This document shows, one piece after another, positions 4,016 through 55,445 of a stretch of 64,000 nt of DNA; position 1 is the first letter of the stretch, and every line of letters starts with the position of its first letter. The position numbers and the translations under genes were made by a program. Origin of the DNA: Azolla caroliniana (Eukaryota; Plantae; Polypodiophyta); contig JBHGNT010000014.1 of NCBI GenBank assembly GCA_043228905.1, positions 7,626,001-7,690,000 on the forward strand. Direction: 5' to 3'. Below the pieces are notes generated by a model, which made no database searches, was not told the DNA's origin, and saw only the letters and a list, made by a program, of their open reading frames with translations.

Positions 4016-4030
4016 CTCCTTACGCCCATT

Positions 4031-6141: not shown

Positions 6142-6145
6142 AATA

Positions 6146-6314
6146 TGTCGCGTTGTTACGCGCGTGCGTGGAGAAAGGAGGGACCACGGGGGTCTTGGAC
6201 TAGGGAGCGACGTAGCGTATGAAGTCACAAATCACCGTTTCTGGGGCACCCCTGAAACGCACCGGAAGCAGCCGAAGGGAGAGAGGGAGTGAGAGAGCAT
6301 GCTTGACACCGACT

Positions 6315-6346
<32 letters not shown>

Positions 6347-6908: not shown

Positions 6909-6914
6909 CCGTAT

Positions 6915-33094: not shown

Positions 33095-33835
33095 TGTCGT
33101 GAAGATTTCCGGCTACGGTGAGAAAACCAAGAGGGACAATTTAAATGGGGATGTACAACGTTGCACATGCACTTGTAAATTTGTGTAATAAGAATAAGTA
33201 AACAAAATGTAATGGGAAGGGTAATAATCTAAGGTGCTAAAGGTGCACCACGGAGTTTGTAGAGGCATAAATGTGATGTGCACTTTGTAGAGTACGAGGT
33301 CAGTAATGGGCATAGTAGTATGTGTGAGGAGTGGGAGCTAAGGCCCATCAATCCCTCCTCCTAGAATCCAAGCAAATATCCCCATTGAATAAAGGGGATA
33401 TTTAGTCTCTCCTTTTTGTAACGGCTTTCTCTGCTTATGCAATAAAAGGAGAGGAAGGGGCACCATTGAAGGGGTTGCCTATTTTGAGTAAGAGAGGTAT
33501 ACCACTTAGGTCCGGGGTCTTTATTCGGGTTTCTTTTAGGGTTTTCTTCTAGGGTTTCTTCTTCGTCTTCTTTACTTGCTTATCCGGTTAGGGTTTTGTT
33601 ATACCATTTGGTGCGGTCTATGCATCCATTGTTGTAATCATTCGTGAAGTCTTAATAAACTTGTTGAGTATGTCGAATCCATCGTCTTCTTCTTCAATCT
33701 TAATGTCATATTCATTGTCCTCTCCTCTTGAGCTAAGCTTCCATTTCTTGTCTTATTCTTTCTCCTCTACTCCCTAGTCCAAGACCCCTGCGGTCCCGCC
33801 TTGGATCCTACACGTACTCGCGGAATATCGCGACA
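33095..33835 (+). repeat. 5' LTR of element D
   Basis: TGTCG..CGACA; matches the split 3' LTR; related to the B LTR around TATA/telobox and U5. Confidence 0.93.
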
Positions 33836-33840
33836 TAATT

Positions 33841-33858
33841 TGGTGAACCCGACGTGAA
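33841..33858 (+). promoter_or_regulatory. PBS tRNA-Trp (element D)
   Basis: TGGTGAACCCGACGTGAA. Confidence 0.88.
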
Positions 33859-33931
33859 GAGGCGGCAAGGGAGGACGGAGATGGATGAAGACTTTGACTT
33901 CGCGGAGATGATGGCAAAGATTGTGACGGAT

Positions 33932-36900
33932 TGTAAAGAATCGGATATGGATTCTTGTGAAGCGGAAGAGATATGAGTTATGTGTGTGTATGAGAGAGAG
34001 AGTGTGAGAGAGAGAGAGACAAGGAATAAGACACAGAGAATACGCAAGGTAAGAGTATATTAACAAAGGACAAAGACTCAAGACAATACAAGGTGGGAGG
34101 AGGGTGCTTTATATAGTCACCCTCTCTCTTCCTTAACTACAAGACTCATGGAGGATGGGGAATGTGAAAGCTCATAAGTTATGTGTCATAGAATATGATT
34201 CTATGACTCAGACTAAATCCTAGAATACAAAGAGGTGACATAATGGTGACTCTTGCCGTTGGAGTGTCTATTCACTCTCAAGGTGAGTTCACACACTAGA
34301 CCAAGTTGAGCTTGATTCTCAACACACCCCCTCAAGCTCAAGTCAGGTCGGTTTAAGACGGTATCCGAAATCCGCTTCGACTCGCGTTCCGGAGTGCACG
34401 TCGATTCACGTCGACTCACATTTATGCGGAGTTGCGGGATCCGTGCTCTAGCTTGCGTTGTGCGTAGTTGCGAAGTCTGTGCTTCAGCTTGTGTCTTTCT
34501 TCGCGTCTTTGCGCGGTTGCGTAATCCACGCATTATTGCGTAGTGTGCGCGGTTTGCGGAATCCTTGCGTTATTGCGTAGCGTCTTCAGTACTCCCCCTC
34601 AAGCTTGGTAGGTTAGGGATCATCAACCCTAGATCGGTCATGAATTGCCATAGCTTGTCGGCTCCTAAGGCTTTAGTGAAGATGTCGGCCGTTTGAAGAT
34701 TGGTGCTAATGTGTTGTAGGTTGACATCGCCAGCTAGAACACGCTCTCGGATGAAGTGATAGTGCACTTCGATGTGCTTTGTCCGCGTGTGGAACACCGG
34801 GTTCCGAGCCAAATAAATACTGCTCATGTTGTCGAAGTAAAGGGGAGTTGGATCCTTGATGGGAACGCCCAAATCCTTCAAAATCCTCTTTAGCCATACG
34901 GCTTCACATGCAGCTACGGTTGCACCCCTGTATTCCGCCTCTATACTTGAAAGAGCGATGATAGGCTGCTTCTTGCTACTCTAGGATATTGCTCCATTGC
35001 CGAGGGAGGAAACAAATGCGGAGGTTGATCTTCTATCGGCTTTGTAGCCGGCCCAATCGGCGTCGGTGTACCCCTCGAGTCATATTGGCATCGCAGTCTT
35101 GTAGAGGATGTCGTAATCCATTGTGCTGCTCATGTATCGAAGAACTCGCTTAGCGCAATCCAAGTGAGTATCACGCGGTGTTTGCATGAATTGACTAAGG
35201 AGACCGACCAGATAACTGAGATCAGGACGAGTGATCGTGAGGTAGATGAGACTCCCGATGAGTTGCCGATATTGAGTCGGTTCACACGCTTTGGTGCCGG
35301 AGTTCGCATCTAGTTTGAGATTGCGATCGAGCGGGGTTGCCGCGGATTTGCGCTCAACCATACCGAACTTGTATAACAAGTTGAGGATGTAGTGCCGTTC
35401 AGAGATCATGATTCCGGCCGGAGACCGAATTACCTCAATGCTGAGGAAGTAGTGGAGCTCCTTCATGTCTGTCATCTCGAACTTGTCAGAAAGGAGGGAT
35501 TTGACCTTATTGATTTCGACGAGATGCTCACCTCCAATGACTAGGTCATCCACATATAAGATGATGACGATTGGACTTGCGGAATCGCGTCGTATGTAGA
35601 GGGAGTTGTCCGATTTGACATACGGAAGCCGATTTGATGAAGATATTGCGTTATCTTCGAATGCCAAGCACCCAGTGCTTGATTGAGGCCGTACAGTGGC
35701 TTCTTGAGTCAGCATACAACTTTCGGATGGGTGCTCGAGTTGAAGCCGGGTGGTTGTATCATGTACACCTCCTCTTCTAATTCGCCTTGTAGAAATGCGT
35801 TCTTGACGTCCATTTGATGGAGGTGCCACCCTTTCGCCGCGGCAAGCACAATTACAGTCCGTACCGTCGTCATCTTTGCCACCGAGGCAAAGGTCTCCTT
35901 GTAGTCAACTCCGTGCATTTGGGCGTAGCATTTCACTACGAGTCGCACTTTGTAGCGGGTGACGGAACCGTCGGTGTTGTACTTCACTTTGTAAATCCAT
36001 TTGCATTTGATCGCCTTTTTGTGTGGTGAGGTGGGAACAAGATCCCACGTCTCATTCTTGCGTAGTGCCTGCATCTCCTCGTTCATGGCTTCTATCTAGC
36101 GCGGATCCTTGGCTGCTTCGGAAAATGTTTCCGGCTCGCATATTGTCGCTACCTTCATCATAAAGGCATAGTGATATGCCATGTAGTCATTGTAGCCGAA
36201 TCAGTTGACCGGATTCTTTTCACGGGTGGAGCAACGGAGCTTTTCATTTGCAGAGATGAGGGCTTTCTTAGCGCCGATTGGTACATTGAAGCCACCAAAC
36301 TCATTGTCGAGTGAGTGAGTCGACTCATCGCCGTCGAAGCGATCGTCTACGTATTCCGCCATTTTCGCCTTGCCTTTGTCCATCTTCGGGCTAGGCCGTG
36401 ATGTGCTTTGATCGCTCAAAGGCTCTTGTGGTCCGCTCAGTCGGGTCGTGATCGGACTTTCTTCGAACATGCGCGTAAGGCGATCTTCATCCTCTATCTC
36501 TTGTTCGGCGGATTCTGGGTTTAGTGGAGTCGGAGTCGAAGTTGTCTCTGGTGTGTACCAGGATGCGGACTCGAGATTTTCGAGTTGAGGGGTTGTAGCA
36601 CTTGTACCCCTTTTGCTCCAATGAGTATCCTACGAGGATACATTTCTCCGACTTCGGGTCGAGCTTTTGACGCTTCTCATCGGGGATGTGCACGTACGCT
36701 ATTGCGCCGAATATCCGGATGTGTGATAAGTCCAGCGTCTTTCCGAAGTATTTTTCGTGCGGAGTGACCTCGTGCACACCAGATGTTGTGCACCAGTTCA
36801 TTAGGTAGACGGCCGTATTTGCAGCTTCGGCCCAATATGACTTGGGCATATGCTTCTCGTTCATCATGGCCCGTGCTACTTCGAGGATGTACCGATTTTT

Positions 36901-39576
36901 GCGCTCGGCTACTCCGTTTTGTTGCGGAGTGTGTCGGCAAGTGAATTCTCGCTGAATTCCTTCGTTACGCCATGAAATCGTCCGAGAAGTACTCCTTGCC
37001 GCCATCCGATCGAAGACATCGTACATGTCAGCCCGTGGCTTTCTCGACTTCATTCTTGAATTTTTGGAAGTGTTCAAACACTTCACTCTTTTGCCGCATT
37101 GGATAGATCCAAGTGTGCCTAGAAAAGTTGTCGATGAAGAGAACGTAATATCTCATCCTTCGAATGTCGCCGTTTGAGCCGGACCCCATACATCGGAATG
37201 AATTACGTCGAGTATGCCTTTGCTCACGTTCCGCTCCTTCGGAAATGGGTGTCGGTGTTGCTTGCCGAATTGGTATGCTTCGCATACACCTTCAATCTCC
37301 TTCTCTTTGAATGTCGGGAGTCCGATGACAACTCCTTTCAATTTCATTGCTTTGAGTTTGTTAAGATTGATGTGGCCGATTTGCTTATGCCATAGCTCTA
37401 TGTCGGAGTCGGCTTTCGTGCTTTTCGCGAACATGACGGATTTCATCTCGTGCGAATCGAGAATGAACATCCGGCCCTCTCTTCTTCTGCGTGCGATGAT
37501 TCACCCTTCTTTTTCGATGAAGCACCCTTCTTGGTCGAATCGTACTTGCATCCCTTGCTCAACCATTTGGCCGACCGAGATCAGATTCTTCGTGATGGTG
37601 GGAACATGTAAGAAATTTTAAATGTATGTTTGCTTACCTCTTTCACCGAACGGAACATTGCCGATGTGCCGAATCAGGTGCGTAGTGTCATCTCCGGTTT
37701 CGACATAACCGGGTCGCTCCGGCTCTCGAAGTTCGAGAAACCATTCTTCATGAGATGTCATATGGTTTGAGGCTCCGGAGTCAACAAACCATACGCCCTC
37801 CAGATTGAGGGCACTAGTTGAGGTAGAGGCCGACATAGAGTTTGCTCTATGTTTCATCATGAACATTCCGCCACGGTCGGAGTTCCGTGCATACATTCCG
37901 CGACGATCTTCGTAGTCGGAGTTGTTCCCGTACATTCTGCTATACTCTTGTAGTCGGAATTGTGCGCGTAATTTGAGAGTTGTCGGATTGTGGAAGCCGA
38001 TGTTGTGCCTTTCGGCACTGGATCGTTGCGTGAGCCGGGTGGGAACCGCTGAGGTTTTGGACTAGGAGAAAAGAAAATTCTAAGGCAATTAAGAATATGA
38101 AATATATTGTAAGAAAGAAAGATTTGAAAACCTCGTGAATCCCATGAGTATAGTGTATTAGTGAGTACTACGATTAAGAGAGAAAAAAAAAAAGTTAGCA
38201 AATTCGTGAATCCCAAGATTATATTATATTAATCCACCCTTATAAAATAAGCAACAACCCTCCATACATCTTTCTCTCCTCCTTATATAAGGATGGAAGA
38301 GGCTAAGCATAGCTTCATGCTTTTTCTAAAGTGTTCATGCACACTAAATGTGCATGAGTTGCCTTTTTACACTATGCTTTTATTTCCTAAATATAGTGCT
38401 CATGCTCGCTAGATGTGCACGAGTCATTTTTTTATTGGTGTATATTTTTCTTATAAATAAAGTATTCACGCATTCTAAAAAATGCATGACTTTCCTTTTA
38501 ATAAAGGTAGGCATAAATAAAGGTCTTATATGTATTGAATCTATATTTAAAACACTTAGGATAAGTTAGTACAATGGTAAGGTTGGGGTTTGTTTACATG
38601 AAGGTACAAGGTTTGAATCCTGCCCTATGCACGTAATAAATATTTTTAATATTTTATTTTATTTATTATACATACTTTAAATCGGATATAGTATTTTACA
38701 TATTTCACGTAGCGTGTGATTCACACTACGACACCGATTCACGCATCTTCTTTCGGCAGTCTTCTTCGTGATGGCCGAGCTTTCCACAATATCTGCATTC
38801 GGTTGCGTTTTGACGGCTTGGGCCGGAGTGGAAGCTCCCCCTTCTTGCGAAGGTTCCTCGTTGGCTTCCATTTTGTGGCCGAAATTGGGAGTTGTTACCA
38901 TAGGTCGGACCTCGTCCGCCTTGTCCTTGGCCGAATCGGCCTCTCGACCGTCCGCGTCCTCTTCCTCTATTCGAGTGCGTGTAGAGCATGTGGCCTTCTG
39001 ACTCATTGCTCCTTGTACGCACGTGGTTTTCTTCGACCAATAGCATTGATTGGAGCTCGAAGAAGGAGGGAGATTTCTCCTGTGCTAGAATGGCGGTTCG
39101 CATTGCGCCGAACCATGGTGCGAGGCCGCCGAGGCATATTTGAACCATCTCATCATCATCGATATTTACGCTTATTGAGCCGAGCGAATCGCAAAGCCCC
39201 TTGATCTTCGAGGTGTATGTCGTAATGGACATGTCCCTTTGTTGAATGTTGTTCAACTCTTGGCGGAGTTGAAGCCTTCTTGCGGTTGTGTTTGCCACGA
39301 AAATCTTTCGTAGATTTTCCCATGCCTCCTTCAGTGTCTTGGCTTCGCGAATGTAGCCAAGCATGTGATCGTGAACACATGTCGCCAAGCAATACATCAC
39401 GCGGCTTCCGGCTTGCTCCCATGATGAGCTAGTTCTTGGTCGTCAGCGTGGAGCACAACACACGATCACGATGAGGCGAATGGGCCAGATCGAGCTACCA
39501 AATCGCTCTGATACCATGTAAAGAATCAAATATGGATTCTTGTGAAGCGGAAGAGATATGAGTTATGTGTGTGTAT

Positions 39577-39621
<45 letters not shown>

Positions 39622-39942
39622 TGAGAGTGAGGGAGACAAGGAATAAGACACAGAGACTATGTAAAGTAAGAGTATATTTACAAAGGAGGAAGACTCAACA
39701 CAATACAAGGTGGGAGGAGGTTGCTTTATATAGTCACCCTCTCTCTTCATTAACTACAAGACTCATGGAGCATGGGGAATGTGAAAGCTCATAAGTTATG
39801 TGTCATAGAATATGATTCTATGACTCATACTAAATGCTAGAATACAAAGAGGTGACATAATGGTGACTCTTGACCGTTGGAGTGTCTATTCACTCTCAAG
39901 GTGAGTTCACACACTAGATCAAGTTGAGCTTGATTCTCAACA
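33932..39942 (-). mobile_element. Ty1/copia element E (decayed; hosts a solo LTR)
   Basis: LTRs 33932-34324 and 39517-39942; TSD CGGAT (33927-33931 / 39943-39947); PBS iMet 39505-39516; CRYCGKLGHHEEDC, WFVDSGAS, IHSDVWG, LYVDDL motifs. Confidence 0.96.
38001..38733 (-). mobile_element. Solo LTR of the Trp-primed family (diverged F type)
   Basis: Homologous to 45680-46466; 4-bp TSD CCGA (37997-38000 / 38734-38737). Confidence 0.92.
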
Positions 39943-39947
39943 CGGAT

Positions 39948-41293
39948 GCTAGATAGAAGAAGGCGGGGCGAGATGCGGCTCAACAAGCCGTCGAGAGGGT
40001 GGTCGATCGAGTCGGCCGATTCAATGGAGATGATGTCCCGAGGTTTTTGAAAGTGTACAATGCCGAGATGACGAAGAGGGGCGTGGACGAAGCGATGTGG
40101 CTAGAATATTTTCGTCGAGTGGCGGCCGTATCGATGCACAAAGAGGTCAAGGAGCTTCGAGACACTCACGAGTCGTGGGAGTCCTTCGAGGGAGCTCTAT
40201 TGGAGGCGTACGGGTACGTTAAACCGGAGGGGCGAGGTCGGCATGAGTTCGATCGATGGGTGGCGTTTGTGAAGGCCCATCGGAACGCTATGGAAGCATT
40301 CCAAGAGTTCGAGTGTCGTTTCCCTCAACTCTCGGAGCGGGATCAGAGATCAGTGGGGGCGGACAAAGTCCTCTTATTTTTGAAGACGGTCCATCAAAAG
40401 GAGAGAATGGACATTCTATTCGAGCTTGAAGATGATCACGTAGCACACGGTCTCACCGAGGAGTGGTCTGAAGTAGAGTGGATGTGCTGAGAACATGATG
40501 CGAGATGGTCAGCCACAAAGCGGCCCACGAGTGGTGGAGAAGAGAGAGCAGTGAGTGACTATGCACTACCGTCGGATGAGAGCTCAACGCGTAATGATAT
40601 GGAGGAGTACGACCTAGAGGCGTTAATTCGGGAGGCATGCGAGATCGTGAAGGTGAAGATCGAAGCCAAAGAGTGCCTTGTTATGGAGTCGAGCCCGAGA
40701 GGATCGGAGGACGCGGAGGAAGATGCCTCCCTACGCGTGGAGGACGGGGCCTATGCGGAGGCCGGAAGAGTGTACGACGACGTGGGAGAGGGTGCGGAGC
40801 AAGCGACCCTCTCGTCTTGCGGTGAAGGGACGACCATGGAGGAGGCTGGTGACTACCAAGCGGGGAGCGCCACTTCGAGAGTGGGCGGGGAATTTGGGAT
40901 ACGATGGCCCGAAACATCAAGCGGGGAGGAGACGAGTGGTGGTGCCGGGACCTTACCCACACCGATTCTAGAGACTCCGGCGTCTGGCCCGAGAGCCGGT
41001 GTGAGACCTAGAGTGACGAATGATGGCAGTGGCAAGGCGGGCAACCATGACGATGGAAAGGAAATCGAGGAAGAGGAGGCGGCAAGCGTAATCGAGGCTT
41101 CCGCGATCGGAGACGAGGTAGCCACGAACAATGACGTCTGGATGGAGGTGGCTACGGACATAACGAGCAACGACGCCGGGATCTTACCCGCACTAGTTCT
41201 AGAGACTCCGGCATCCGGCCCGAGAGCCAGTATGAGACCTAGAGTGACGGATGGTGGCGGCGGCAAGGCAGGCGACTGAAACGAAGAGGAGGA
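39948..41293 (+). pseudogene. Gag-like ORF of element D, middle part (starts about 33881, continues 50288 to about 51650)
   Basis: VGRFNGDDVPRFLKVYNAEM..WESFEGALLEAYG..VGADKVLLFLKT..GLTEEW; two PxxLETPASG repeats at a 231-bp period. Confidence 0.82.
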
Positions 41294-41376
41294 TGTTAGG
41301 AAACAGGTCCCTCCGGATGGGAAGTGAGAAGAACAGCACTGATGAGCAAACTCGGCCTCGGCCGAATCCGTATGTG

Positions 41377-41482
41377 GAGTACCCGGTGAGAACCGGACGA
41401 CGAGTACCCGGCTACGGAAGACCCGGTGAGAACCGGATGACGAGTACCCGGCTACGGAAGACCCGGTGAGAACCGGATGACG
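41377..41482. repeat. About 40-bp tandem repeats in the H LTR (also 49660-49785)
   Basis: gagtacccggctacggaagacccggtgagaaccggatgac units. Confidence 0.88.
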
Positions 41483-42016
41483 TGTGCCCGGAAAGCGTCG
41501 GATGATGCAGGCCCGGTGAGGAGTGCTCACCGGATGAAGGGACATATTCGTAAATATGTTTCTGAGAGTCCATCGGGGCAATATTTGTAAATAGCCGAAA
41601 AGTCATATTAGTATAAATATGACTGAGGGCAAACTTTAGTGTGTTTTTTTTTGTTGTCATTCTTGTTGGTGCAAGATTAGAGCGTAACAGTGTACAGAGA
41701 GAGAGAGAGAGAGATGAAGAGGTCGTTTCCTCTATTGTAACCGCCGCCTGTGGCGAAGATAGCAAGCTCGAGGTTGTTACCTCGGTGCTTTACTATTGTA
41801 CATTCTAATATAGTGATAGTTTGCAGTCTGTGGCTGCCGTGGTTTTTCCCTAGTTTGGGTTTTCCACGATAACATCCTTTGTTCTCTTCTCTCCATTGTG
41901 TTGTGCATTCATTCTCATTTTCAGTGTTAGATTCTAAGCTTGGTTGTGGCCGAGCGTTGTTTATCGGGAGTGTGTAGTTCCTGACAAAGTGGTATCAGAG
42001 CGAAGCGACACAGAAA

Positions 42017-45000
42017 ATGGATGAATCATTGGGAGGCATGTTCAAGCTCACCGGCTCCAACTATTCGGTGTGGAAGTCGAAGATGAGGGACATGCTCGTG
42101 GTTAAAGATCTTTGTTTGCCGGTTTAGTTTGGGGACAAGAGACCGGACAAAATCGACGCCACGATATGGGAGGTGATGCATATGAAGACAACTGCGTACA
42201 TACGGTGCTTCATCGACATGAGTCTATACAACAACTTCAATGAAGAGAGCAAGGCTCATGAGCTCTGGGAGAAGATCGGCATTATGTTTCAAAACAAAAA
42301 TGCTATTAATCAGGTTTCGGTATTTCGGAAGCTAGTAAGACTCTGGTACCAAGATGGCTCCAACATGGCGGAGCACATGAATGCCTTCCAGGGGCTGATC
42401 CACCAGGCAACATCATTGGAAGTACCTCTCGCCGACGAAGTACTAGCACTACTCCTACTCGGTTCCCTCCCAGATAGCTGGGAGACGTTGGTTGTCACTT
42501 TGGGCCACGCCGGGCCGGAAGTGAAATGATTATCCCTAGCAAGAGTGAAGTCGAGCTTGCTAGATGAGGAGGCAGGTCGGAAAGATAAGGATACGAGCTC
42601 CGACTCCAAAGCGCTCCTTACTGAATCGGAACGTGGAAGCCAAAGGAACCGTAGTCCCCAGAACCGGGAGAAGTCGGGGACACGGTCAAAGTCAAGGGGG
42701 AGGCCTACCTGCTTCTATTGTGGCAAGCCAAGACACTTCCAGAAAAACTGTCGGCACTTCCGAAAGGACAAGGAAACCGACGACACCGATTCGAAGCGGA
42801 CATCGGACCGAAACGGTAAAGACCGGAAGGGAACCATGGCAATCGCGTCAAGTGAAGAAGAGTTGATGCTCATCACCAAGGAGAGTGAGCTAAACCTTGC
42901 CGGCGACGAGATGACTTGGGTGGTCGACTCCGGATTGTCGTTCCACCTTACCCCGGACCGGAAATGCTTCTCATCCTACTCAGTCGGTGATCACGGCTGT
43001 GTCCGGATGGGGAATGAAGGTACATGCCGAATTTTCGGCATAGGAGACGTGTGGTTGACAACGCCAACCAGATGCAAGCTGCTGCTGAAGGATGTTCGAC
43101 ACGTTCCGGAGGTTCGTCTAAACCTGATATCACCCGGTCGACTAGATGATGAAGGCTACACGGGTAGCATCCGGAACGGTGTTATGAAGTTCAGCAAAGG
43201 GAGCATGATTGTGGCTCGGGTCCGGAAGGTAAACACTTTGTACCTGATGAATGCCCAGTTATGTTCGGAGGAAGTGAACGTGGCATCTGACACTGCCGGT
43301 GAGCTGTGGCACAAGAGGCTGTGCCACATGAGCGAGAAGGGGATGAAGAGGCTTGCAGAAGACAACCTCATTCCAGTGAAGAACGTGCACTTGGAGAAGT
43401 GCATTGATTGTCTGGCCGATAAACAAAATCGGACCTCCTTCTGATCGAGGCCACCGATGAGACGTAATACACCACTGGAGTTGGTGCATACTGATGTATG
43501 TCAAGTGGACACGAAGTCACATGCCGGATCGCAGTACTTTGTGACGTTCATAGATGACCACAGCCGGAAGCTGTGGGCCACACCATTGAAGACGAAGGAT
43601 CAGGTGTTATCCGTCTTCAAAGAGCTCCACGCGAGAGTGGAAAGAGAAGCCGGCCGGAAGTTGAAGGTGGTTCGAGCAGATAACGGAGGTGAATACCGGG
43701 GGCAGTTCGAGGAGTATTGTCATTTGAAGGGAATCCGGCTCGAATTTACCGTGCCGAAGACGCCGAAACTAAACGGGCTGGCCGAGAGGATGAACCGGAC
43801 CATAATGGAGAGGGGCCGGAGTATGCTGGCGCATGCAAAACTACCCAAGAAGTTTTGGGCTGAGGCACTGTCGACGACGACATATGTGATAAATAGATCA
43901 CCCTCAATACCCTTGGACGGAGACACGCCACAGAGAGTCTGGACTGGTAAGGAAGTGTCCTACCGGCATCTGAAGGTATTCGGGTGTCTTGCGTATGTGC
44001 ATGTAGCTAAGGACCGGAGAGGAAAACTAGATTCGAAGACCCGGCCATGCATATTCCTCAGTTACGGTGACGATGGGTTCGGCTACCGAGTGTGGGACTT
44101 GGCCGACAAGAAGGTATTCCGGCGTCGAGATATTATCTTCATGGAGGACAAGACGCTCGCCGACTGGGAGTTGGAGAAGAAGATAATGAACTCCGAGTCG
44201 ACCGGTAACGATTGATTCTACGATGAGCAGACCCAACCGGCAAGAGACCGGTTAGCACTCGAGGAACCAGTCGGTTACGGTGAGGATACCGAACCGGTAG
44301 AAGAAGAAGTAGAGGAAGCTGAAACCGGAACTGGCGAAGACCCCGAATCGGATTCGGATGAAGAGCAAATGGAGGAGCCGGTTATCGAAGCCCAAAGACG
44401 GAGATATCCTCTCAGAGAGAGAAGGCCCCCCCGGAGATTTCCGGATGCAGAGCATGTGTTGCTAACCGATGAGGGAGAGCCAGAAAGCTTTGAAGAAGCG
44501 AAGGATGACACCCACAACCGGAAATGGTTAAGTGCCATGCAGGATGAGATGGATTCCCTGCACGAGAACCATATGCACGAATTGGTGGAGTTGCCGAAAG
44601 GAAAGCGGGCACTCCGAAACAAGTGGGTGTACAAGTTGAAACCGGGAGATGCCGGCAACCCCCCGAGATACAAAGCCAGGATTGTGGTGAAGGGGTTCGA
44701 CCAGAAGAAGGGCGTGGACTTCGACGAGATATTTGCCTCGATAGTAAAGATGACCTCCATCCGGACGGTGCTGAGTATAGCGGCAAGCATGGACCTCGAA
44801 GTAGAGCAGCTGGACGTGAAGCTGACATTCCTTCACGGTGACCTTGAAGAGGAGATCTACATGCAGCAACCGGAGGGATTCGTGGAGAAAGGGAAGGAGC
44901 ACCTAGTTTTTCGGTTGAAGAAGAGCCTGTACGGACTGAAGCAGGTTCCCCGACAATGGTACCGGAAGTTTGACTCCTTCATGACCGATCAAGGGTACCA

Positions 45001-45679
45001 CAAGACGCAGGCCGATCATTGCGTGTTTGTGAAGAAGTTCGAAGGAGGCGACTTCCTGATACTCCTTCGATCGTCGGACGGGACCAAGCCAGAATACGGA
45101 TGTTGAAGAAGGCTCTCAATCGAACTTTCGCAATGAAAGACTTGGGTCCGACAAGACAGATGCTGGCGATGCATATCATCCGGAACCGGCCAATGAAGCA
45201 ACTGTGGCTGTCACAGGAGAAATACATAACAAAGGTGCTTCAGCGGTTCAACATGTTAGAAGCGAAACCAGTCGGATCGACACTCCCGGGAAACTGCAGA
45301 TTATACGGTAAGCAAAGCCCGAAGACGAAAGCAGAGAAGGCTGATATGATGAAGGTTCCATATGCCTCTGCCATCGGGATCTTAATGTACGCAATGGTGT
45401 GTACCCGACCGGATATAGCATACGTAGTCGGAGTACTGAGCCGGTTTATGAGAAATCCCGACAAGGAGCACTTGAACATGGTCACATGGATACTCCGGTA
45501 CTTGAAGGGCACTTCGGACATGTGTCTCCGACTCGGCCCCGATAAACCTCAACTTGACGGTTTTACTGATTCAGACATGTCGGCTGATATGGATACCAGT
45601 TGGTCTACATCCGGGTATGTAATGACTTATGCAGGGGGAGCTGTTTCGTGACAGTCGAGGCTGCAAAAGACGGTTGCGT
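42017..45679 (+). pseudogene. Copia H gag-PR-INT-RT-RH (RNase H end at 49257-49606)
   Basis: FKLTGSNYSVWK, CFYCGKPRHFQKNC, WVVDSG, LVHTDVC, NGLAERMNRT, YKARIVVKG, VPYASAIG, GFTDSD. Confidence 0.94.
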
Positions 45680-46418
45680 TGTCGTGCCTTTCGGCTCAGG
45701 ATCGTTGCGTGAGCCGGGTGGGAACCGCCGAGGTTTTGGACTAGGAGAAAGAAGAATATGAGATGAGGCTAGTAATGAATAGATTATTAGAAAGAGAGAT
45801 AGAAATTTCATGAATCCCACGAGTGTATTGTATTCGATTAATCAATATTTAGATAAGAATATGTATTTAGATTGAAAGAAAGATATAAGAAACTTGTGAA
45901 TCCCACAAGTATAGATTATATTATTTTCGTGAATACCACGATTATATTAATCGGTTGGTGTTTTCGGAAATATATCCAATTTCCAAATATTTCACACCCC
46001 TATTACATTCTGCTCCCCATCCTTATGTAGTGATGAGAGAGACTAAGCATAGCTACATGCTTTTTCTAATATGTTCATGCACACTAAATGTGCATGTGAT
46101 GCTTTTCTAATCCTTGCTTTTATTTGCTAAATATAGTGCTCATGCACGCTAGATGTGCATGAGTCACTTTTTAGTTACTTGCGTTTTTCTATAAAATATT
46201 CACGCACTCTAAAAATGCATGATTTACTTTTTAATAAAGGTAGGCGCAAATAACGGACTTATAGTTATTAAATCTATTTGTAGAACACTAAAGATAAGGT
46301 AGCATAATGGTAAAGTTGAGGTTTGGCTACGTGGAGGTACAGGGTTTAAATCTTGCCCTATGCACGTGGTAAATATTTTGATATTCTTATTTTATTTATT
46401 TATATGTAATTAAATCGG

Positions 46419-48428
46419 TTATATTATTTTTACTTTTTCATGTAGTGTACGAAATACACTACGACACTCGCCCCCTCCGAACCCGCACATCCTCCGGTAT
46501 GTGCCGAAGTTGCCGATGCTCATTGTCTCCCCTTCATCCTCCGTTTGTCCCGCTATGTCAACTTTGTCTCTCCATTTTGAGTAGACCCATTCTTTCCACC
46601 CGAACCATTGTCGCCATCCGATCCACCATATTCTTTGTTCTCTCTCGTCATATTCTTGGCCCTTGTCATTCGTGGTAGTGTCTTTTACTGGCCTCTTTCT
46701 TGTCTTCATCAACCTTGACTTTTTTCCGGATCGCTCTCGTCCGATCGACTTTCGGTTTGATCGGCTTCCGATCGGATTCGTATTCGGCCGAATCGGAATC
46801 GGTTGTTCGGTTTCGATTGAGTCGGTCTCCTTCCGGCCCGGTTTCGATCTATCGGTTTCGGTTTCGGTTGGCTTTCTTTTCCTCGTTTTCACCAGCCTCG
46901 ACCGGTCCAACCTCCGATTGAGTCGGATTAACTTCTTTCCGGATCGGTCTCGTCCGATCGGCTTTCGGCTAGGTCGGCTTCCATCCATATTCGCGTTCGG
47001 CCAAGTCAGACTCGGTCGATCGTTTTTGACCGAGTCGACCCCTTTTTGGGTCGGCTTTCTTTCGGGTCGTCTTTCGGCCGAATCCTCATCCTTTCGGTTC
47101 GGCTTTCTTTCGGGTCGACTTTTGGTCGAATCCTCATTCGCCCGGTTCGGCTTTCTGTCAGGTCGGAATCCCGTCCGGATCACCTTCCATCCGAACCGGC
47201 TTTCGACTTTACCTTTCTTGCTTCCACCTCCCGTCTCTCCGGTCTCACGTTGGTTCTCGGACACAACCGCCGAAGTCTCTAGAATTAGTGGGTAGGAATC
47301 CTCGATATTATCATCCTCCGTTGTTTCACCCATAGCCATATTCTTGGCTATCTCTCCGTCATACGCATCGGTTTCGACCTTTGTTTTCTCTCCGCCACCT
47401 TCCGTCTCTTCGGTCTCACGTTGCCTTTCGAACGCAACCGCCGGAGTCTCTGGAATCAGTGGTGGGGAAGTCTCGATATGGCCATCCGTCGTTGATTCGT
47501 CCATAGCCACCTTTGATTCGATGTCATCTTTCGTGGCGACCTCCTCAATCAAGTCCTCCTTTCTCTCTTTCACTGCATCAATTATGCTTACCCCTTTTTC
47601 ACCCGATGTTTCGGACACTTGTATTCTGAAATCTTCTTCTACACTTGGGTTATCGGCCTTATCCTTCGTCGTTGTTCTTTCGCAAGACAAGAGGGTAGCT
47701 TGTTTTACACTCTCTTCCGTCGCACCATCATGTTGTATTTCGGCCTTCATATCGGCTCCATCGTTTGTCTTCAATCGACCATCCTTCATCGGCCATGTCG
47801 TTGACAAGATTCTTATCTTCCTCTCATCATGTCTCCGGCATACCCTTTGGACTTCGGCCCAATCTTCGGTAAGACCATTCGCACCGTCATCGTCTTCGAG
47901 TTCGATCCCGATGTCCATCCTTTCTTTTCGATCGATCGATTTTACGAACATTAAGACTTTATCCTCCCCCACCAATCGTTGTTCCCGCTCCGAGAGTCGA
48001 GCAAGACGATGCTCGAACTCTAGGAATGCTTGTGTTGCACTTCGGTGGGTCTTCTCCAATGCCACCCATTCGTCAAACTCGCATCGATCTCGTCCCTTCG
48101 ATCTCTCGTAGTCATATGCCTCTCGTAAAGCTTCTTCAAAGGACCCCCATGTTGGATTTTGTTGCCGTATCTTGTAGATTCTTTCTTGTAACTCATCCGT
48201 GGCTACCCGACTGAAGGATATCACTTGCAATCCTTCCGGTATCCCACATCGCATCATCTCCCCTTTGTAGTCACGTAGATAGCGTGACACATCATTTCCG
48301 TTCAATTCCCCTTTTCGTCGCACAAGCCGCTCTACTGCCACCTTCATCTCCGTCATCGCGTGTTGTTCTTGTTGCATCCGCTCAACCATCATCATCATCA
48401 TGTTCATCGCCTCTTGTTGATTTTCCAT
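46419..48428 (-). CDS. Intact 669-aa gag-like protein of element F
   Basis: Uninterrupted ORF starting about 15 nt after the PBS and filling the whole internal region; conserved N-terminal ~210 aa shared with B and D; acidic then basic repetitive tail; gag identity is inferred from position and motif pattern. Confidence 0.8.
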   Translation of the reverse strand: MENQQEAMNMMMMMVERMQQEQHAMTEMKVAVERLVRRKGELNGNDVSRYLRDYKGEMMRCGIPEGLQVISFSRVATDELQERIYKIRQQNPTWGSFEEALREAYDYERSKGRDRCEFDEWVALEKTHRSATQAFLEFEHRLARLSEREQRLVGEDKVLMFVKSIDRKERMDIGIELEDDDGANGLTEDWAEVQRVCRRHDERKIRILSTTWPMKDGRLKTNDGADMKAEIQHDGATEESVKQATLLSCERTTTKDKADNPSVEEDFRIQVSETSGEKGVSIIDAVKERKEDLIEEVATKDDIESKVAMDESTTDGHIETSPPLIPETPAVAFERQRETEETEGGGEKTKVETDAYDGEIAKNMAMGETTEDDNIEDSYPLILETSAVVSENQRETGETGGGSKKGKVESRFGWKVIRTGFRPDRKPNRANEDSTKSRPERKPNRKDEDSAERRPERKPTQKGVDSVKNDRPSLTWPNANMDGSRPSRKPIGRDRSGKKLIRLNRRLDRSRLVKTRKRKPTETETDRSKPGRKETDSIETEQPIPIRPNTNPIGSRSNRKSIGRERSGKKSRLMKTRKRPVKDTTTNDKGQEYDEREQRIWWIGWRQWFGWKEWVYSKWRDKVDIAGQTEDEGETMSIGNFGTYRRMCGFGGGECRSVFRTLHEKVKII

Positions 48429-48443
48429 CTCCTTGCCACCCGT

Positions 48444-48461
48444 TTCACGTCGGGTTCACCA
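48444..48461 (-). promoter_or_regulatory. PBS tRNA-Trp (element F)
   Basis: Plus strand TTCACGTCGGGTTCACCA, 4 nt from the LTR. Confidence 0.88.
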
Positions 48462-49085
48462 ACTGTGTCGTGCCTTTCGGCTCCGGATCGTTGTGTGAGT
48501 CAGGTGGGAACTGCCGAGGTTTTGGACTAGGAGAAAGAAGAATATGAGATGAGGCTAGTAATGAATAGATTATTAGAAAGAGAGATAGAAATTTCATGAA
48601 TCCCACGAGTGTATTGTATTCGATTAATCAATATTTAGATAAGAATATGTATTTAGATTGAAAGAAAGATATAAGAAACTTGTGAATCCCACAAGTATAG
48701 ATTATATTATTTTCGTGAATCCCACGATTATATTAATCGGTTGGTGTTTTAGGAAATATATCCGATTTCCAAATATTTCACACCCCTATTACATTATGCT
48801 CCCCATCCTTATGTAGTGATGAGAGAGACTAAGCATAGCTACATGCTTTTTCTAATATGTTCATGCACACTAAATGTGCATGTGATGCTTTTCGAATCCT
48901 TGCTTTTATTTGCTAAATATAGTGCTCATGCACGCTAGATGTGCATGAGTCACTTTTTAGTTGCTTGTGTTTTTCTATAAAATATTCACGCACTCTAGAA
49001 ATGCATGATTTACCTTTTAATAAAGGTAGGCGCAAATAAAGAACTTATAGTTATTAAATCTATTTGTAGAACACTAAAGATAAGG

Positions 49086-49139
49086 TAGCATAATGGTAAA
49101 GTTGAGGTTTGGCTACGTGGAGGTACAGGGCTCGAATCC
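49086..49139 (+). promoter_or_regulatory. tRNA-like Pol III A/B boxes inside the F LTR
   Basis: A box TAGCATAATGG and B box GGCTCGAATCC (GGTTTGAATCC in the solo LTRs), 32-nt spacing. Confidence 0.55.
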
Positions 49140-51782
49140 TGCCCTATGCACGTGGTAAATATTTTGATATTCTTATTTTATTTATTTATATGTAATTAAA
49201 TCGGTTATATTATTTTTACTTTTTCACGTAGTGTACGAAATACACTACGACAGCGTTGTCAACCACGGAAGCGGAGTACATGGCAGCTGTGGAAGCTAGC
49301 AAGGAAATATTATGGATGAAGGACTTCATCGGAGAGCTCGGTATCTGGCAAGATGAATACCGGCTCTATTGCGACAGTCAAAGTGCCATCCACCTTGCTA
49401 AGAATGCAGCCTACCATTCCCGAACAAAGCATATCCAGTGAAGGTATCACTGGATCCGGAAAAGAGTAGATGACCAGGAGTTCGCGCTGACGAAGATCCA
49501 CACGGCCAAGAACGGGTCAGATATGCTGACCAAAGTACTGATACCCAACAAGTTGGATGCATGCCGGAAGCGGATCAGACTAGTAAGACATCCCATGCCG
49601 GAGTGAAGGGGGGGAGTTTGTAAGGAAACAGGTCCCTCCAGATGGGAAGTGTTCGGATGTGGAGTACCCGGCTACGGAAGACCGGGTGAGAACCAGACGA
49701 CGAGAACCCGGCTACGGAAGACCCGGTGAGAACCGGATGACGAGTACCCGGCTACAGAAGACCCAGTGAGAACCGGATGACGTGTGCCCGGAAAGCGCCG
49801 GATGATGCAGGCCCGGTGAGGAGTGCCCACCAGATGAAGGGACATATTCGTAAATATGTTTTTGAGAGTCCATCGGGGCTATATTTGTAAATAGCCGAAA
49901 AGTCATATTAGTATAAATATGACTGAGGGCAAACTTTAGTGTGTTTTTTTTAGTTGTCATTCTTGGTGGTGCAAGATTAGAGCGTAACAGTGTACAGAGA
50001 GAGAGAGAGAGAGATGAAGAGGTCGTTGCCTCTGTTGTAACCACCGCCTGTGGCGAAGATAGCAAGCTCGAGGTCGTTGCCTCGGTGCTTTACTATTGTA
50101 CATTCTAATATAGTGATAATTTGCAGTCTGTGGGCTGCCATGGTTTTTCCCTAGTTTGGGTTTTCCACGATAACATCATGTGTTCTCTTCTCTCCATTGT
50201 GTTGTGCATTCATTCCCATTTTCAGTGTTTGATTGTAAGCTTGGTTGTGGCCAAGCGTTGTTCATCGGGAGCGTGTAGTTCCTGACAGATGCGAGGCCTG
50301 GAACGAGCATATACGAAAGGACCGAAGGGGAGGCCGAGAGCGGCAACAAGAAGAGAGTCGAGAACCAACCTGACCGGAAGGCGAACTGGGAAAAGAATGA
50401 AGCGGGGCCCGGTCAACTGGGCCCAAACTGAAGAAGAGCCGACAAGACCAGAAGTGTTCAGCTGAACCCTTACCGACCGGTTACGATTATGGAAGGAAGC
50501 TGACCAAACCGGAACATGATCGGTCGGGACCGAACCGAGCAAGGACCAAGCCGGCATGATTGGAGATCGGGGAGGACGAGTCGCAACACATGGTGGGAGC
50601 CGGTGAGCGCGAGAAGGAGGCCAAGCGGGCATGACGACTACGGTCCTGTGAAAGACCGGAAACGGGCGGGACACTCCACACCTATTCTAGAGACTTCAGC
50701 GGTTGCGGATGAACGTAAGATTGGAGAGACGGCGGGTGGCAGCGAGGAGTCGGTTACCGGAGCGGGTATCCGGTATGAAATAATGGACGAATGGGGCCAA
50801 AACGGCAAGCCCCAGTTGGAACGAGCTATGACAACAAAGGGAGAAGAGGCCAACGTGGAGGTCAGGTATACGACGGGTGAAGGGAGTAAAACGAACCATG
50901 CACTACGACCGGCTAAGGGCCAAGAAGCAAGGATGCACCCAGAAGAGTGGCAACGAGTGACCGGCAACGGTGGGCCGATCGAGCCTTTAAGAGGCAAGCA
51001 CGTGGTGAGAGACGAAGCGGTAGGGTGCCATGATTGGTGGATGAACGGCTGGAGAGAAGCATGGTGTGCGGTGAATAAAAGGGTACACGTCGGGAAGAGA
51101 ATGTGTGGCGTGCCGGAGGACATGCGAGGCCAAGAGGGTGCAAGTCAAGGCGAAGCAGTATCAAGAGCAGCGAAGGACACCGACCCGGAGGTCGGTATGA
51201 GGGTACGTTCTACGGCGAGAGAACACGACAAGCAAGGGGGAAGCGAGGAGTGCGTAATGGGGTCGCGTAAGGACTGAAGAACGAGTGTGCATTCGGGGAA
51301 CGATAACGGCACACAAGAAGATCCTACGCAAAGCGAGCGCGGAGCGGAGAGAGTCAGCATGCGGAGACGATCGAACCGACAGAGGGACATACGCGGTACG
51401 CAAGGCGTGAAATCCGACGTACAACCGAAGTGACCGGGGGCCCAATCGAAGGGCATACATGGCGGACAAATTCGGAGTGGCCGGGTTGACAACGGCATCC
51501 AGGAGGACATATCGGGGAGGAAGGCGCAAACGTCGGATATGGTGGATCGGATGGAGCCGATGGATCGGGGCCGGAAGGAGCCGGCAAGGCGGTCGGGTGT
51601 CGGGACGGCAGATGACCCGGTTGATCATCGTCGCCAAAATCTCTCACCTTTTCCCTCTTGGCACATACCGGTGGATGTGCGGTTTGGTGGGGCCAGATGT
51701 CGTGAAGATTTCTGGCTACGGTGAGAAAACCGGGAGGGACAATTAAAATGGGGATGTGCAACATTGCACATGCACTTGTAAA

Positions 51783-54700
51783 TGTAAAAGATTATGTGCG
51801 GAAGCAATAGAAAACCGAACACACACGATATACGCAGGTTTAATGGAGAGCTTTGAGTATACACAATACACGGGAGAGATAGAGAGAGAGAAACACACAG
51901 AAACTCAATTCAAAATAATACTCAATCTGTACACACACCATGCTTAGTGACCACCTTTTATACAAGCCCTGACAATAGGGCTGACACAAGTATTGACAGT
52001 ACTTGACCGCTCATAAATGAGCCTCGACACTTACTCCCGAAATTATTCCTTACGAGGAATATCTTTCTAACGGCCTTCCGGTTTACGCACCGATATGGCC
52101 ATGTTATGTGTACCGATTTACGCACCCAGTCTACGCACTGGGTTACGCACCGTATTATGCACACATGTTGAGCTTGTCTCTCAACACTCCCCCGCAAGCT
52201 CAACTTGAGGTTCCACCTGCTCCACTGGATCTACGCTCCAGTTCCTTCTAGCTTCACGCCTCACTCGTGCTCCTCGATTCGTTCGATTCCGCGCGCCTCG
52301 ACCCTCCCGGTCGGCTTGACTGCTTAAACGGCCCTTCTCAGCTTCCTTGTTGTTGTAGTGTTGGCGCCTCTTCTGCTACCTTCTCTTCCGCTTGGCCCTT
52401 GGTTGATTCAGCGTAACCGAATCAAACATCCGAACTAACTCGGCTTCCTCCGATCCGTTTTCGTTCTCATCCGAGTTGGTTGTCTCCAACTCGTCTTCAA
52501 TCTTCTCGCCCTTGATGGCTTCATCTCCCCCATGCTTGGCTAGCTTTGGCTCTTTCTTCCGGTTGCTCCCCTTATGTCCGCTTTCACACTCTTCCGTGGA
52601 TCCGCCCTCAGCTTCTTCAACCAATCCGAAATCGAATTCGTCATCCGACTCGGCGTCACGGTCTTTTCCGCTCCTTTCCTACTCCCTTCCGTGGTCATCC
52701 AGGACGTCTCTACCCCTCAAGTTCGGCTCGTCGAGGTGACGCAACCCAAGCGCACCCGAGAATTGTTGCAACTTTTCCAGACCAAGAGGCTTGGTGAAGA
52801 TGTCGGCGTTCTTCCAATCCGTCGGAACATATTGAAGTTCAACTTCACCGGAGAGGACACGCTCACGGACGAAATGGTAGTGAACCTCAATGTGCTTAGT
52901 CCGGGCGTGGAAGACAGGGTTCTTTGCTAGCTAGATGCTACTGAGGTTGTTGTAGTAGATTGTCGTTGGATTAAATATCTCCACCTGCATATCCTCAAGT
53001 AGCCGCTTCAACCATATGGCTTCAAATGTCGCGACATCCGCTCCTCTATACTCGGCTTCGGTGCCCAACTGCGCAACTGTCGGTTGCGTCTTGCTCCTCC
53101 ACATGATCGCGGCACTCCCAAGAGAGAACGCGAAACCGAACCTGGATCGGCGATCGGTGGCGTTTCCGGCCCAATCAGCATCGGTGTAACCAACCAACTG
53201 CGTGGCAATATCGGTTTGATATAGTAGCCCCCGGTCCTTAGTGCCATTGATGTACCGGAGTACGTGTTGTGCCCACTGAAGGTGCTCCTAGGTCGGTCGC
53301 GCCATGAACTGACTAATCACCTCGATTGGGTAGTTGAGATCTAGTCGGGTGATGGTCAAGTATATAAGTCGACGTACCACACCTCGTCCAACTTCGGGGT
53401 GATCTTCTTCATCGAGTTAGCTTTGTATCTCTTCACGAAGACTGACCCTTTTCCGGATCCTTCGGCGTAGTGCGATCGTTGCCGATTTCCTTTGTTGGTC
53501 AGTCCGGAACCTGATCCTGACCCGGTTCTCTCCAAATCAGCGCACTTTTTCCAGCACTCGCTCTCCCTGTGGCCTTTCTTGCCACAGTACCAACCTTCCG
53601 CAGCGGATTTCCCTTGCCGGTTCTCGTCGCCTTGACTCCCCCTGTTTCCAAAGGGTCCGGAATTGTTGTCGGCATCGCTTCGATGCCTTCTTCCTTGATC
53701 TCGTTGGCTGCCTCCATTGCGCACCGACTCGCCATCTCCCTCCATGTACAACATCTTGTTGTCGGCATGCGTGCTCGTCGACGCACCCGCGTGGTTCTCC
53801 TCTACAAGGAGCATCGATTGTAAGTCAAAAAACAACGGCGTGTGTACACACAGCAATTCGGAACACTCCGAACTTCGACGTCAGTCCCCCGAGACTAATC
53901 TGCACCATCTCACCTTCCTCGACGTTCACATCGATAGAGGCTAAAGAGTCGCATATATCTTTGATCTTCGAGGTGTAATCAACCACTGATAAGTCGCGTT
54001 GTCATAAATTGCTTATCTCCTGTCGGAGTTGAAGCTTCCAAGCTGTCGTGCTTGCGGCGAAAATCTTCTTCAGATTTCCCCAAGCATTCTTTGGCGTTTT
54101 CGCATCCCGAATATAGTTGAGGAGTTGTTCGCCCACACAAGACGCGAAGCAGTACAGTACTCTGCTCATTGGCTGTTCCCACACCGGGAAATCTCTGTGT
54201 GTCGATTCGGGTGCTATGTCCTTTGCTCCGTCAACATAGCTCCAGTAACCATGCCTGAACAGGTACTGGTGCATCCTGTAGGACCAAGATGCGTAGTTGT
54301 TTCTGTAGAGCTTCTCCGTCGGAAGTGAGCTAGCCATGCCTCTATCCATCGGTTTTATCTGTTCTTCTTGGTTGGTTTTCCTTTCAAGCTATGTCGGTTG
54401 CAGAGGCTCTCAACCCTCACGCTCTGATACCATGTAAAATATTATGTGCGGAAGCAATAGAAAACTGAAAACACACAGAATACGCAGGTTTAATGGAGAG
54501 CCTGACCTGAGTATACACAGTACGCGGGAGAGACAGAGAGAGAGAAACACACAGAACCTCAATTCAAAATAATACTCAATTTGTACACACATCGTGCTCA
54601 ATGAGCACCTTTTATACAAGCCCTGACAATAGGGCTGACACAAGTACTGACAGTACTTGATCGCTCATAAATGAGCCTCAACACTTACTCCCAAAATTAT

Positions 54701-54841
54701 TCCTTACGAGGAATATCTTTCTAAACGGCCTTCCGGTTTACGCACCGATACAACCATGTTATGCGTACCGATTTACACACCTAGTCTACGCACTGGGTTA
54801 CGCACCGTATTATGCACGAATGTTGAGCTTGTCTCTCAATT
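51783..54841 (-). mobile_element. Ty1/copia element G, internally deleted, inserted in the 3' LTR of D
   Basis: LTRs 51783-52186 and 54433-54841; PBS iMet 54421-54432; TSD GTAAA / ATAAA; protease WYVD fused directly to RT IYLTITR. Confidence 0.93.
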
Positions 54842-55445
54842 ATAAATTTGTGTAATAAGAATAAGTAAACAAAATGTAATGGGAAGGGTAACAATCTAAG
54901 GTGCTAAAGGTGCACCACGAAGTTTGTAGAGGCATAAATGTGATGTGCACTTTGTAGAGTACGAGGCCAGTAATGGGCATAGTAGTATGTGTGAGGAGTG
55001 GGAGCTAAGGCCCATTAATCCCTCCTCCTAGAATCTAAGCAAATATCCCCATTGAATAAAGGGGATATTTAGTCTCTCCTTTTTGTAACGGCTTTCTCTC
55101 CTTATGCTATCAAAGGAGAGGAAGGGGCACCATTGAAGACGTTGCCTATTTTGAGTAAGAGAGGTCTTCTTTACTTGCTTATCCGGTTAGGGTTTTGTTA
55201 TACCGTTTGGTGCGGCCTCTACGGCCATTGTTGTAATCATTCGGGAAGTCTTAATAAACTTGTTGAGTATCTCGACTCCATCGTCTTCTTCTTCAATCTT
55301 CATGTCATATTCATTGTCCTCTCCTCTTGAGCTAAGCTTCCATTTCTTGTCTTATTCTTTCTCCTCTACTCCCTAGTCCAAGACCCCCGCGGTCCGCGGT
55401 CCCGCCTTGGATCCTACACGTACTTGCGGAATATTGTGACAACGT

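What the first reader, a model, noticed from the sequence alone, without database searches (positions are those of the whole stretch)
45680..49252. Pol-less, tRNA-Trp-primed LTR element family (B, D, F plus two solo LTRs)
Seen: three elements with distinct LTRs (763, 741 and 787 bp) share TGTCG..CGACA ends, an identical 18-nt PBS TGGTGAACCCGACGTGAA, a short GGYGGCAAGG leader and one ORF with a conserved ~210-aa N-terminus. No protease, RT, RNase H or integrase motif was seen. F keeps an intact 669-aa ORF. Known: the PBS matches the 3' end of tRNA-Trp, the primer of avian sarcoma/leukosis viruses, whereas most plant LTR elements use tRNA-iMet; gag-only TR-GAG elements are described in angiosperms. 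Inference: a diversified non-autonomous lineage that makes its own capsid and borrows Pol from an unseen non-chromovirus gypsy partner.
Basis: partly seen in the sequence, partly recalled or inferred. Interest (0 to 1): 0.85.

Follow-up and report, generated by a model that had tools for sequence, protein, structure and literature searches.

The report
Capsid-only parasite of Phygy-type retrotransposons
These plant jumping genes lack all copying enzymes but keep a conserved capsid-like gene, and they share their primer site and insertion scar with complete retrotransposons that likely copy them, making them an old, part-swapping variant of the known gag-only hitchhikers and not a new kind of element.

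Summary
F (45680-49252), B and D share an exact 18-nt PBS and a short leader, and carry one gag-like frame with no protease, RT, RNase H, integrase or zinc knuckle. The tRNA-Trp primer is not a surprise: tRNA-Trp priming and a 4-bp NCGN target duplication are the published hallmarks of the Phygy non-chromovirus lineage, and 4 of the 5 insertions here have such a scar. The 'unseen partner' exists: metagenome contigs with the same PBS, LTR end and hairpin+PPT encode Gag-protease and RT-RNaseH-integrase. F's N-terminal 210 aa fold as a two-lobed Gag capsid, under purifying selection (dN/dS about 0.1-0.3). The capsid C-lobes of all 20 Pol-less sequences form one clade, so these are an old lineage, not independent recent deletions. 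F is a recombinant: its LTR end, leader and N-lobe group with an autonomous family. Related subfamilies lost one lobe or both yet keep a frame open across the element, which weakens 'makes its own capsid'. Closest known: TR-GAG and wheat WHAM/Sabrina. Verdict: new variant of a known kind.

The parts
45680..49252 (-). Element F, complete Pol-less LTR element (3573 bp), inserted in the RNase H region of a copia element
48466..49252 (-). F 5' LTR, 787 bp
   Evidence: 21 substitutions against the 3' LTR, no gaps
45680..46466 (-). F 3' LTR, 787 bp; the ORF's last 16 codons run into it
48444..48461 (-). F primer binding site, 4 nt after the LTR; complement of a tRNA-Trp 3' end (inferred: 16 of 18 bases match the human tRNA-Trp complement) and of the plant small RNA called miR894
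46419..48428 (-). F intact 669-aa gag-like ORF
   Evidence: tail open against 0 of 200 shuffles
48134..48428 (-). N-terminal helix and capsid N-lobe (codons 1 to about 99); groups with autonomous family L054/P0004/P0007; crossover near 48134-48149
47799..48133 (-). Capsid C-lobe (to about codon 210); marks the Pol-less clade
46653..47798 (-). Tail predicted disordered: acidic part (aa 214-415, 25% D+E) then basic repeats (aa 416-590, 31% K+R); no detectable likeness to autonomous loci
46548..46652 (-). Trp-rich segment predicted helical (aa 593-627), found in 12 of 17 Pol-less homologues
46485..46504 (-). 6-bp hairpin just before the PPT, shared with autonomous elements
46467..46484 (-). G-rich polypurine tract
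45676..45679 (.). F left target duplication GCGT (right copy 49253-49256)
1913..6908 (-). Element B (4996 bp): LTRs 6146-6908 and 1913-2675, PBS 6124-6141, broken ORF from 6108, 6-bp target duplication
33095..55441 (+). Element D (about 4.3 kb net): 5' LTR 33095-33835, PBS 33841-33858, ORF from 33881 with stops, split by three copia insertions (about 33932-39943, 41376-50287 which holds F, 51778-54839)
20762..21484 (+). Solo LTR 1 of F's LTR type, scar TCGC
38001..38733 (-). Solo LTR 2 of F's LTR type, scar CCGA

Best explanation
F, B and D are copies of one old lineage of enzyme-less LTR elements that keeps a capsid-domain gene under purifying selection and is likely packaged with, reverse-transcribed by and integrated by complete Phygy-type gypsy retrotransposons. 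Shown: shared PBS, LTR end and hairpin+PPT with autonomous elements; NCGN scars; a monophyletic capsid C-lobe; dN/dS under 1; a recombinant 5' module in F. Inferred steps: (1) the element's RNA is translated across its whole internal region; (2) the Gag-like product joins particles that contain helper Gag-Pol, probably carrying its own RNA by the basic tail in place of the missing zinc knuckle; (3) helper RT primes on tRNA-Trp and sometimes switches template between co-packaged helper and parasite RNAs, which would explain F's captured LTR, leader and N-lobe; (4) helper integrase inserts the cDNA at NCGN sites.
For: Phygy: 4-bp NCGN scar 100%, tRNA-Trp PBS 81%; 4 of 5 window insertions NCGN. 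Loci found by the PBS alone include Gag-protease plus RT-RNaseH-integrase elements with no chromodomain hit in 4 of 4 Pol frames scanned. Model of aa 1-213 pLDDT 93; 21 of the top 22 VIA rows are Gag-type capsid domains by title, best Z 9.7 (dArc1; rmsd 8.9, 160 aligned), single lobes Z 8.9 (rmsd 1.7, 65) and 8.1 (rmsd 3.0, 80); Atlas top hits Retrotrans_gag. C-lobe tree: 20 of 20 Pol-less rows one clade, 100/100, stem 0.84; held with 107 rows and a mixture model, with none of the 31 autonomous-labelled rows inside. 0 of 7 loci with a Pol-less-type C-lobe have a knuckle, 11 of 13 with autonomous type do. dN/dS F C-lobe vs 9 Pol-less partners 0.10-0.31, upper bootstrap bounds at most 0.54. N-lobe tree puts F with L054/P0004/P0007 (99/99); Pol-less monophyly rejected, p-AU 0.01; sharp crossover at codons 94-99; the same chimera in L002 and P0001, and contigs of host-like runs bridge the junction. 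Gag of Physcomitrium patens is among the homologues (P0167).
Against: No autonomous partner was seen in the window's own genome (no genome held); the helpers come from metagenome contigs of other, unnamed samples, which are collapsed assemblies and can be chimeric (L013's second element is suspect). Phygy membership was not tested against reference RT sequences. The Pol-less capsid is more relaxed (0.1-0.4) than autonomous C-lobes (0.05-0.19 where dS was defined) and the tail is near neutral (0.4-0.85 in unsaturated pairs); pairs are not independent. Subfamilies lacking the N-lobe (L031, L043, L013b), the C-lobe (P0011, P0012, P0014, P0016) or both (L001, L051, L071), and 2 of 10 non-coding ones, show that a whole capsid is dispensable. 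Foldseek gave no match at E <= 0.001 and VIA Z of 8-10 is middling for a helical protein. Direction of the capture was not tested with a root.
Confidence: 0.8

Rival explanations
1. The Pol-less Gag forms complete capsids on its own and only imports helper Gag-Pol (the first reader's version; a cooperative Gag donor as proposed for WHAM/Sabrina).
For: F, B, D, L076 and L078 keep both lobes, both under purifying selection (F N-lobe 0.23, C-lobe 0.22 vs L002); confident two-lobe model.
Against: No zinc knuckle; a 450-1200-aa disordered tail with no protease of its own; high-depth subfamilies lack a lobe.
Confidence: 0.35
2. What is selected is mainly an open frame across the RNA (for stability against nonsense-mediated decay or for delivery to assembly sites), with the capsid piece acting as a docking tag or a competitor of helper Gag, like Ty1 p22.
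For: 8 of 10 complete Pol-less internal regions carry a 456-1419-aa ORF, 3 of them with no capsid hit; 9 of 9 tails open against 0 of 200 shuffles each while tail dN/dS is near neutral; C-lobe-only forms keep dN/dS 0.20-0.24; p22 is a Gag fragment that disturbs particles (PMC8458377, abstract start).
Against: 2 of 10 elements are non-coding; DNA indel test was mixed (8 of 12, 3 of 3, 16 of 34, but 2 of 11 and 21 of 66 multiples of three; LTR controls 16 of 79); the Trp-rich helix is conserved as protein; the elements are mobile, not fixed host genes.
Confidence: 0.3
3. The copies are independent recent deletions of autonomous elements, and the open frame is a leftover.
For: F's LTR end, leader and N-lobe are 66-70% (protein) like an autonomous family.
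Against: C-lobe monophyly on a long stem; dS up to about 1.5 among Pol-less copies with low dN; the tail has no likeness to autonomous loci except the 35-41-nt PPT cassette.
Confidence: 0.04

Closest known systems
TR-GAG (Chaparro et al. 2015, PMC4350172)
   Same: LTRs, PBS, PPT, one Gag ORF, no protease/RT/RNase H/integrase, multicopy, F under 4 kb.
   Different: 4-bp NCGN scar, not 5 bp; no zinc finger (TR-GAG1 has one); long acidic/basic tail and Trp-rich helix; B, D exceed 4 kb; Gag missed by Pfam, so their HMM screen would likely miss it; one old lineage with purifying selection and an identified helper type, whereas TR-GAG1's partner was not found; reported from angiosperms and a brown alga.
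Phygy, non-chromovirus Ty3/gypsy (Neumann et al. 2019, PMC6317226)
   Same: tRNA-Trp PBS, 4-bp NCGN scar; helpers have gypsy domain order with no chromodomain; Gag homologous to a P. patens protein.
   Different: Described as specific to Physcomitrella and as autonomous 7.7-10-kb elements; the window's elements have no Pol, so they cannot be placed by the defining RT/RH/INT phylogeny. Relatives here are named from Riccia and Adiantum as well.
Wheat RLG_WHAM / RLG_Sabrina with helper RLG_Wilma (Wicker et al. 2021, PMC9744471)
   Same: Long-lived Pol-less families that keep gag, share PBS and LTR termini with a helper, have variants with replaced ORFs; helper switches by LTR transfer are proposed there for Angela.
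   Different: WHAM and Sabrina_SA keep protease; tRNA-Asp primer; angiosperm; no lobe-level capsid swapping or loss described in the passages read.
Ty1 p22/p18 and Drt2 capsid C-lobe restriction factors
   Same: C-lobe-only Gag products (as in L031, L043, L013b).
   Different: Copia, yeast; restrict transposition; made from an internal transcript or a domesticated gene, not from mobile Pol-less elements. Functional likeness untested.

Membership tests
TR-GAG | LTRs with PBS and PPT | tested here: met
TR-GAG | Single ORF with Gag capsid similarity | tested here: met
   fold and Atlas hits; homologues with Retrotrans_gag below cut-off; no direct Pfam hit
TR-GAG | No protease, RT, RNase H, integrase | tested here: met
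TR-GAG | Length under 4 kb (1-6 kb in the paper's HMM screen) | tested here: inconclusive
   F 3573 bp meets it; B 4996 bp and D about 4.3 kb meet only the wider range
TR-GAG | Multiple dispersed copies | tested here: met
   3 in the window; 2155-3118 contigs per run lie on an 821-bp stretch of F
TR-GAG | 5-bp target site duplication as described | tested here: not met
   4 bp in 4 of 5 insertions, 6 bp in B; so filed as a variant that works like TR-GAG, not as a strict member
Phygy | Clusters with P. patens Phygy in RT/RH/INT trees | not testable with these tools
   The elements have no Pol; reference sequences were not among the supplements held; no P. patens name among the 120 listed Pol hits of the helper
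Phygy | 4-bp NCGN target duplication | tested here: met
   4 of 5 insertions; empty site
Phygy | tRNA-Trp PBS | tested here: met
   16 of 18 bases match the human tRNA-Trp complement; exact complement of a CCA-ended plant small RNA; the host's own tRNA gene was not seen
Phygy | Helper Pol in order RT-RH-INT with no chromodomain or extra RNase H | tested here: met
   4 of 4 helper Pol frames (3 complete to the stop) by Pfam
Phygy | Full polyprotein spanning the internal region | tested here: not met
   B, D, F lack Pol: they are dependants of Phygy-type elements, not Phygy elements proper
Chromovirus / Tat | Chromodomain / archaeal-type RNase H in the helper | tested here: not met
   no such Pfam family at E <= 0.01 in the helper Pol frames

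The most novel reading that the evidence does not exclude
An ancient parasite lineage whose Gag is not a self-sufficient capsid but a modular boarding pass: single capsid lobes, repeatedly swapped with or captured from helper families, dock a disordered RNA-binding tail and its own RNA onto the helper's particle, with selection keeping one frame open from PBS to PPT even after the capsid is lost.
Probability: 0.3. Interest if true: 0.68.

Novelty: new variant of a known kind. Interest (0 to 1): 0.42.

Why it matters
It gives the gag-only class a case with an identified helper type, measured selection on the capsid and a mapped recombination with the helper, which makes the open question of what the Gag of TR-GAG elements does testable. 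It suggests Phygy-type elements reach beyond moss to liverworts and ferns. These high-copy elements are invisible to Pfam-based annotation, so seed-free plant repeat catalogues likely miss them. The PBS is also the exact complement of the abundant small RNA filed as miR894.

Tried and rejected
Whole-genome search impossible. Pfam on F: nothing; PDB sequence profile: 0 hits; Foldseek none at E <= 0.001. Longer (1172-3345 aa) homologues of the N-terminus: none of 578 candidates, weak evidence. Viral contigs: no relative of P0007; 31 loci with the PBS 15-mer held 0 tRNA genes, so no tool-side plant tRNA-Trp was obtained. No RNA holder listed; not evidence on expression. Complex prediction of F C-lobe with helper C-lobe: no verdict, score 0.00. 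Idea that the Trp-rich motif is a read-through of a helper 3' UTR signal: rejected, only the hairpin+PPT is shared with helpers. Idea that the tail is decayed pol: no similarity found. Idea that the 3' cassette is a tRNA-end replacing the PPT, as other notes on this genome report for other families: not supported, a G-rich PPT follows it and its first base varies. Hairpin covariation is thin: one pair changed on both sides in 2 of 15 sequences. DNA indel-frame test inconclusive. The L002 row's sliding window was out of frame and is not used. A link to avian retroviruses: rejected as incidental. Literature searches for a prior description and miR894-tRNA links found none; Repbase, REXdb sequences and subscription journals were not searchable.
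Full report
Observation. The 18-nt PBS occurs three times exactly, against 0.06 expected. Each copy follows an LTR end CGACA by 4-5 nt and precedes a short GGYGGCAAGG leader and an ATG. F spans 45680-49252 with 787-bp LTRs differing at 21 sites (K2P 0.027); B spans 1913-6908 (0.050); D spans 33095-55441 and is split by three copia insertions, one of which holds F (0.044), so nesting order and LTR ages agree. F's 669-aa ORF is intact; B and D are broken. No Pol, protease or zinc knuckle lies in any of them. The host is a land plant (PPR gene); a fern is my inference from named relatives and recall, not a test, and no genome is held.

Four of five insertions have 4-bp NCGN duplications, and contigs from 3 of 4 public runs skip exactly 3577 bases at F's site. 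Neumann et al. 2019 (PMC6317226; passages, section 13 and one supplementary table row seen) list Phygy, a non-chromovirus gypsy clade from Physcomitrella, with 4-bp NCGN scars in 100% and a tRNA-Trp PBS in 81% of 186 elements. The PBS matches the human tRNA-Trp complement at 16 of 18 bases (10.1101/400127, one passage). The element table and FASTA of that paper were not among the supplements held and could bear on membership.

The partner. Several encode Gag-protease and an overlapping Pol; 4 of 4 Pol frames scanned show RT, RNase H, integrase and no chromodomain. Two of the 19 homologues of F's N-terminus have knuckle, DUF4100 and protease. Named relatives are from Physcomitrium patens, Riccia sorocarpa and Adiantum nelumboides. 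Helpers and Pol-less elements share a 35-41-nt hairpin+PPT cassette and nothing else 3' of the capsid.

The protein. Residues 1-213 give a confident model (pLDDT 93) whose best structural matches are Gag-type capsids (Arc, copia, PNMA, PEG10, Ty3, retroviral CA; best Z 9.7; each lobe separately Z 8-9 at rmsd 1.7-3.0), agreeing with the Atlas; Foldseek ranks the same proteins first but none at E <= 0.001. The rest is predicted disordered (318 of 456 residues under pLDDT 50) except a Trp-rich helix, present in 12 of 17 Pol-less homologues.

Lineage, not deletions. In the C-lobe tree (39 rows; 4 rows lacking the lobe left out) all 20 Pol-less sequences form one clade, 100/100, and no autonomous-labelled row enters it among 107 rows (few columns, quick search). 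Among 20 PBS-selected loci with enough sequence, 0 of 7 with this lobe have a knuckle and 11 of 13 with the autonomous type do. dN/dS for F's C-lobe against 9 Pol-less partners is 0.10-0.31; N-lobes 0.23-0.37; autonomous C-lobes 0.05-0.19 where defined; tails 0.4-0.85 (pairs overlap, some saturated, contigs are collapsed assemblies).

F is a recombinant. In the N-lobe tree (34 rows; 3 rows without a real lobe left out) F groups with autonomous L054, P0004 and P0007 (99/99) and Pol-less monophyly is rejected (p-AU 0.01). Nucleotide identity to L054 falls from about 0.75 to 0.45 and to L076 rises from 0.5 to 0.75 at codons 94-99; F-D similarity starts at 48149. L002 and P0001 share the chimera and host-like contigs bridge it. 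Template switching between co-packaged RNAs is the standard route to such recombinants (established knowledge); it is inferred here, as is the direction of capture.

Against a self-made capsid. Of 14 PBS-to-PPT spans found, one was a false match and 3 carry RT; of the 10 Pol-less ones, 8 have a 456-1419-aa ORF and 2 are non-coding; of the 8, 2 have both lobes, 3 the C-lobe only, 3 neither. Four proteins have the N-lobe only. All 9 tails tested are open where 0 of 200 shuffles are. So translation through the element, or a docking role for one lobe, may matter more than a full capsid; this is the novel case.

Comparison. TR-GAG (PMC4350172; abstract, parts 2 and 4 of the text and passages read) defines gag-only LTR elements; this family meets the structural features but not the 5-bp scar. 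Wheat WHAM/Sabrina with Wilma (PMC9744471; passages) is the precedent for old semi-autonomous partners and helper switches; recombination among non-autonomous families is common in sugar beet (PMC13570524; passages). Ty1 p22 was seen only as abstract starts. Searches found no description of Pol-less Phygy derivatives or of Phygy in ferns (PMC8282616 and PMC12924346 checked by passages), within a library that lacks subscription journals and repeat databases. Earlier scan notes held nothing on this family.

Verdict. Real; a new variant of the gag-only non-autonomous kind, dependent on Phygy-type helpers; interest 0.42.

Noticed in passing
window 48441-48461: The PBS complement equals the abundant CCA-ended plant small RNA filed as miR894, which maps to gypsy repeats in Cryptomeria (PMC5846777); likely a tRNA-Trp 3' fragment that could target these elements.
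   Followed up: partly
L001, L071, L051: Trp-PBS elements with 456-636-aa ORFs spanning most of the element but no capsid hit; L051's tail is simple Ser/Thr and Arg repeats yet stays open.
   Followed up: partly
window 48109 in runs X1, X3, X9, X4: A high-depth contig leaves F here in 4 of 4 runs and matches the C-lobe-deleted subfamily P0011/P0012, so that subfamily occurs in the host-like organisms.
   Followed up: partly
window 1907-1912 and 6909-6914: Element B has a 6-bp target duplication and an altered outer terminus, perhaps an aberrant integration.
   Followed up: no
L031, L043, L037, L039: C-lobe-only Pol-less elements share LTR end (78-79%) and leader with a different autonomous family, a possible second capture of a 5' module.
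   Followed up: partly
window 28274-31585: Intact 1103-aa plant PPR gene amid nested retroelements.
   Followed up: no
window 13191-16284; 17454-18934; 26397-27176; 58010-62666: LINE-like RT frame and several gypsy remnants with chromodomain-like ends (read from ORF text); they are only 21-29% like the helper Pol and are not the partner.
   Followed up: partly
L013, L015, L022, L054, L064, L075: Autonomous helpers have Gag-protease and Pol in two overlapping frames; the published table lists this organisation as not determined for Phygy.
   Followed up: no
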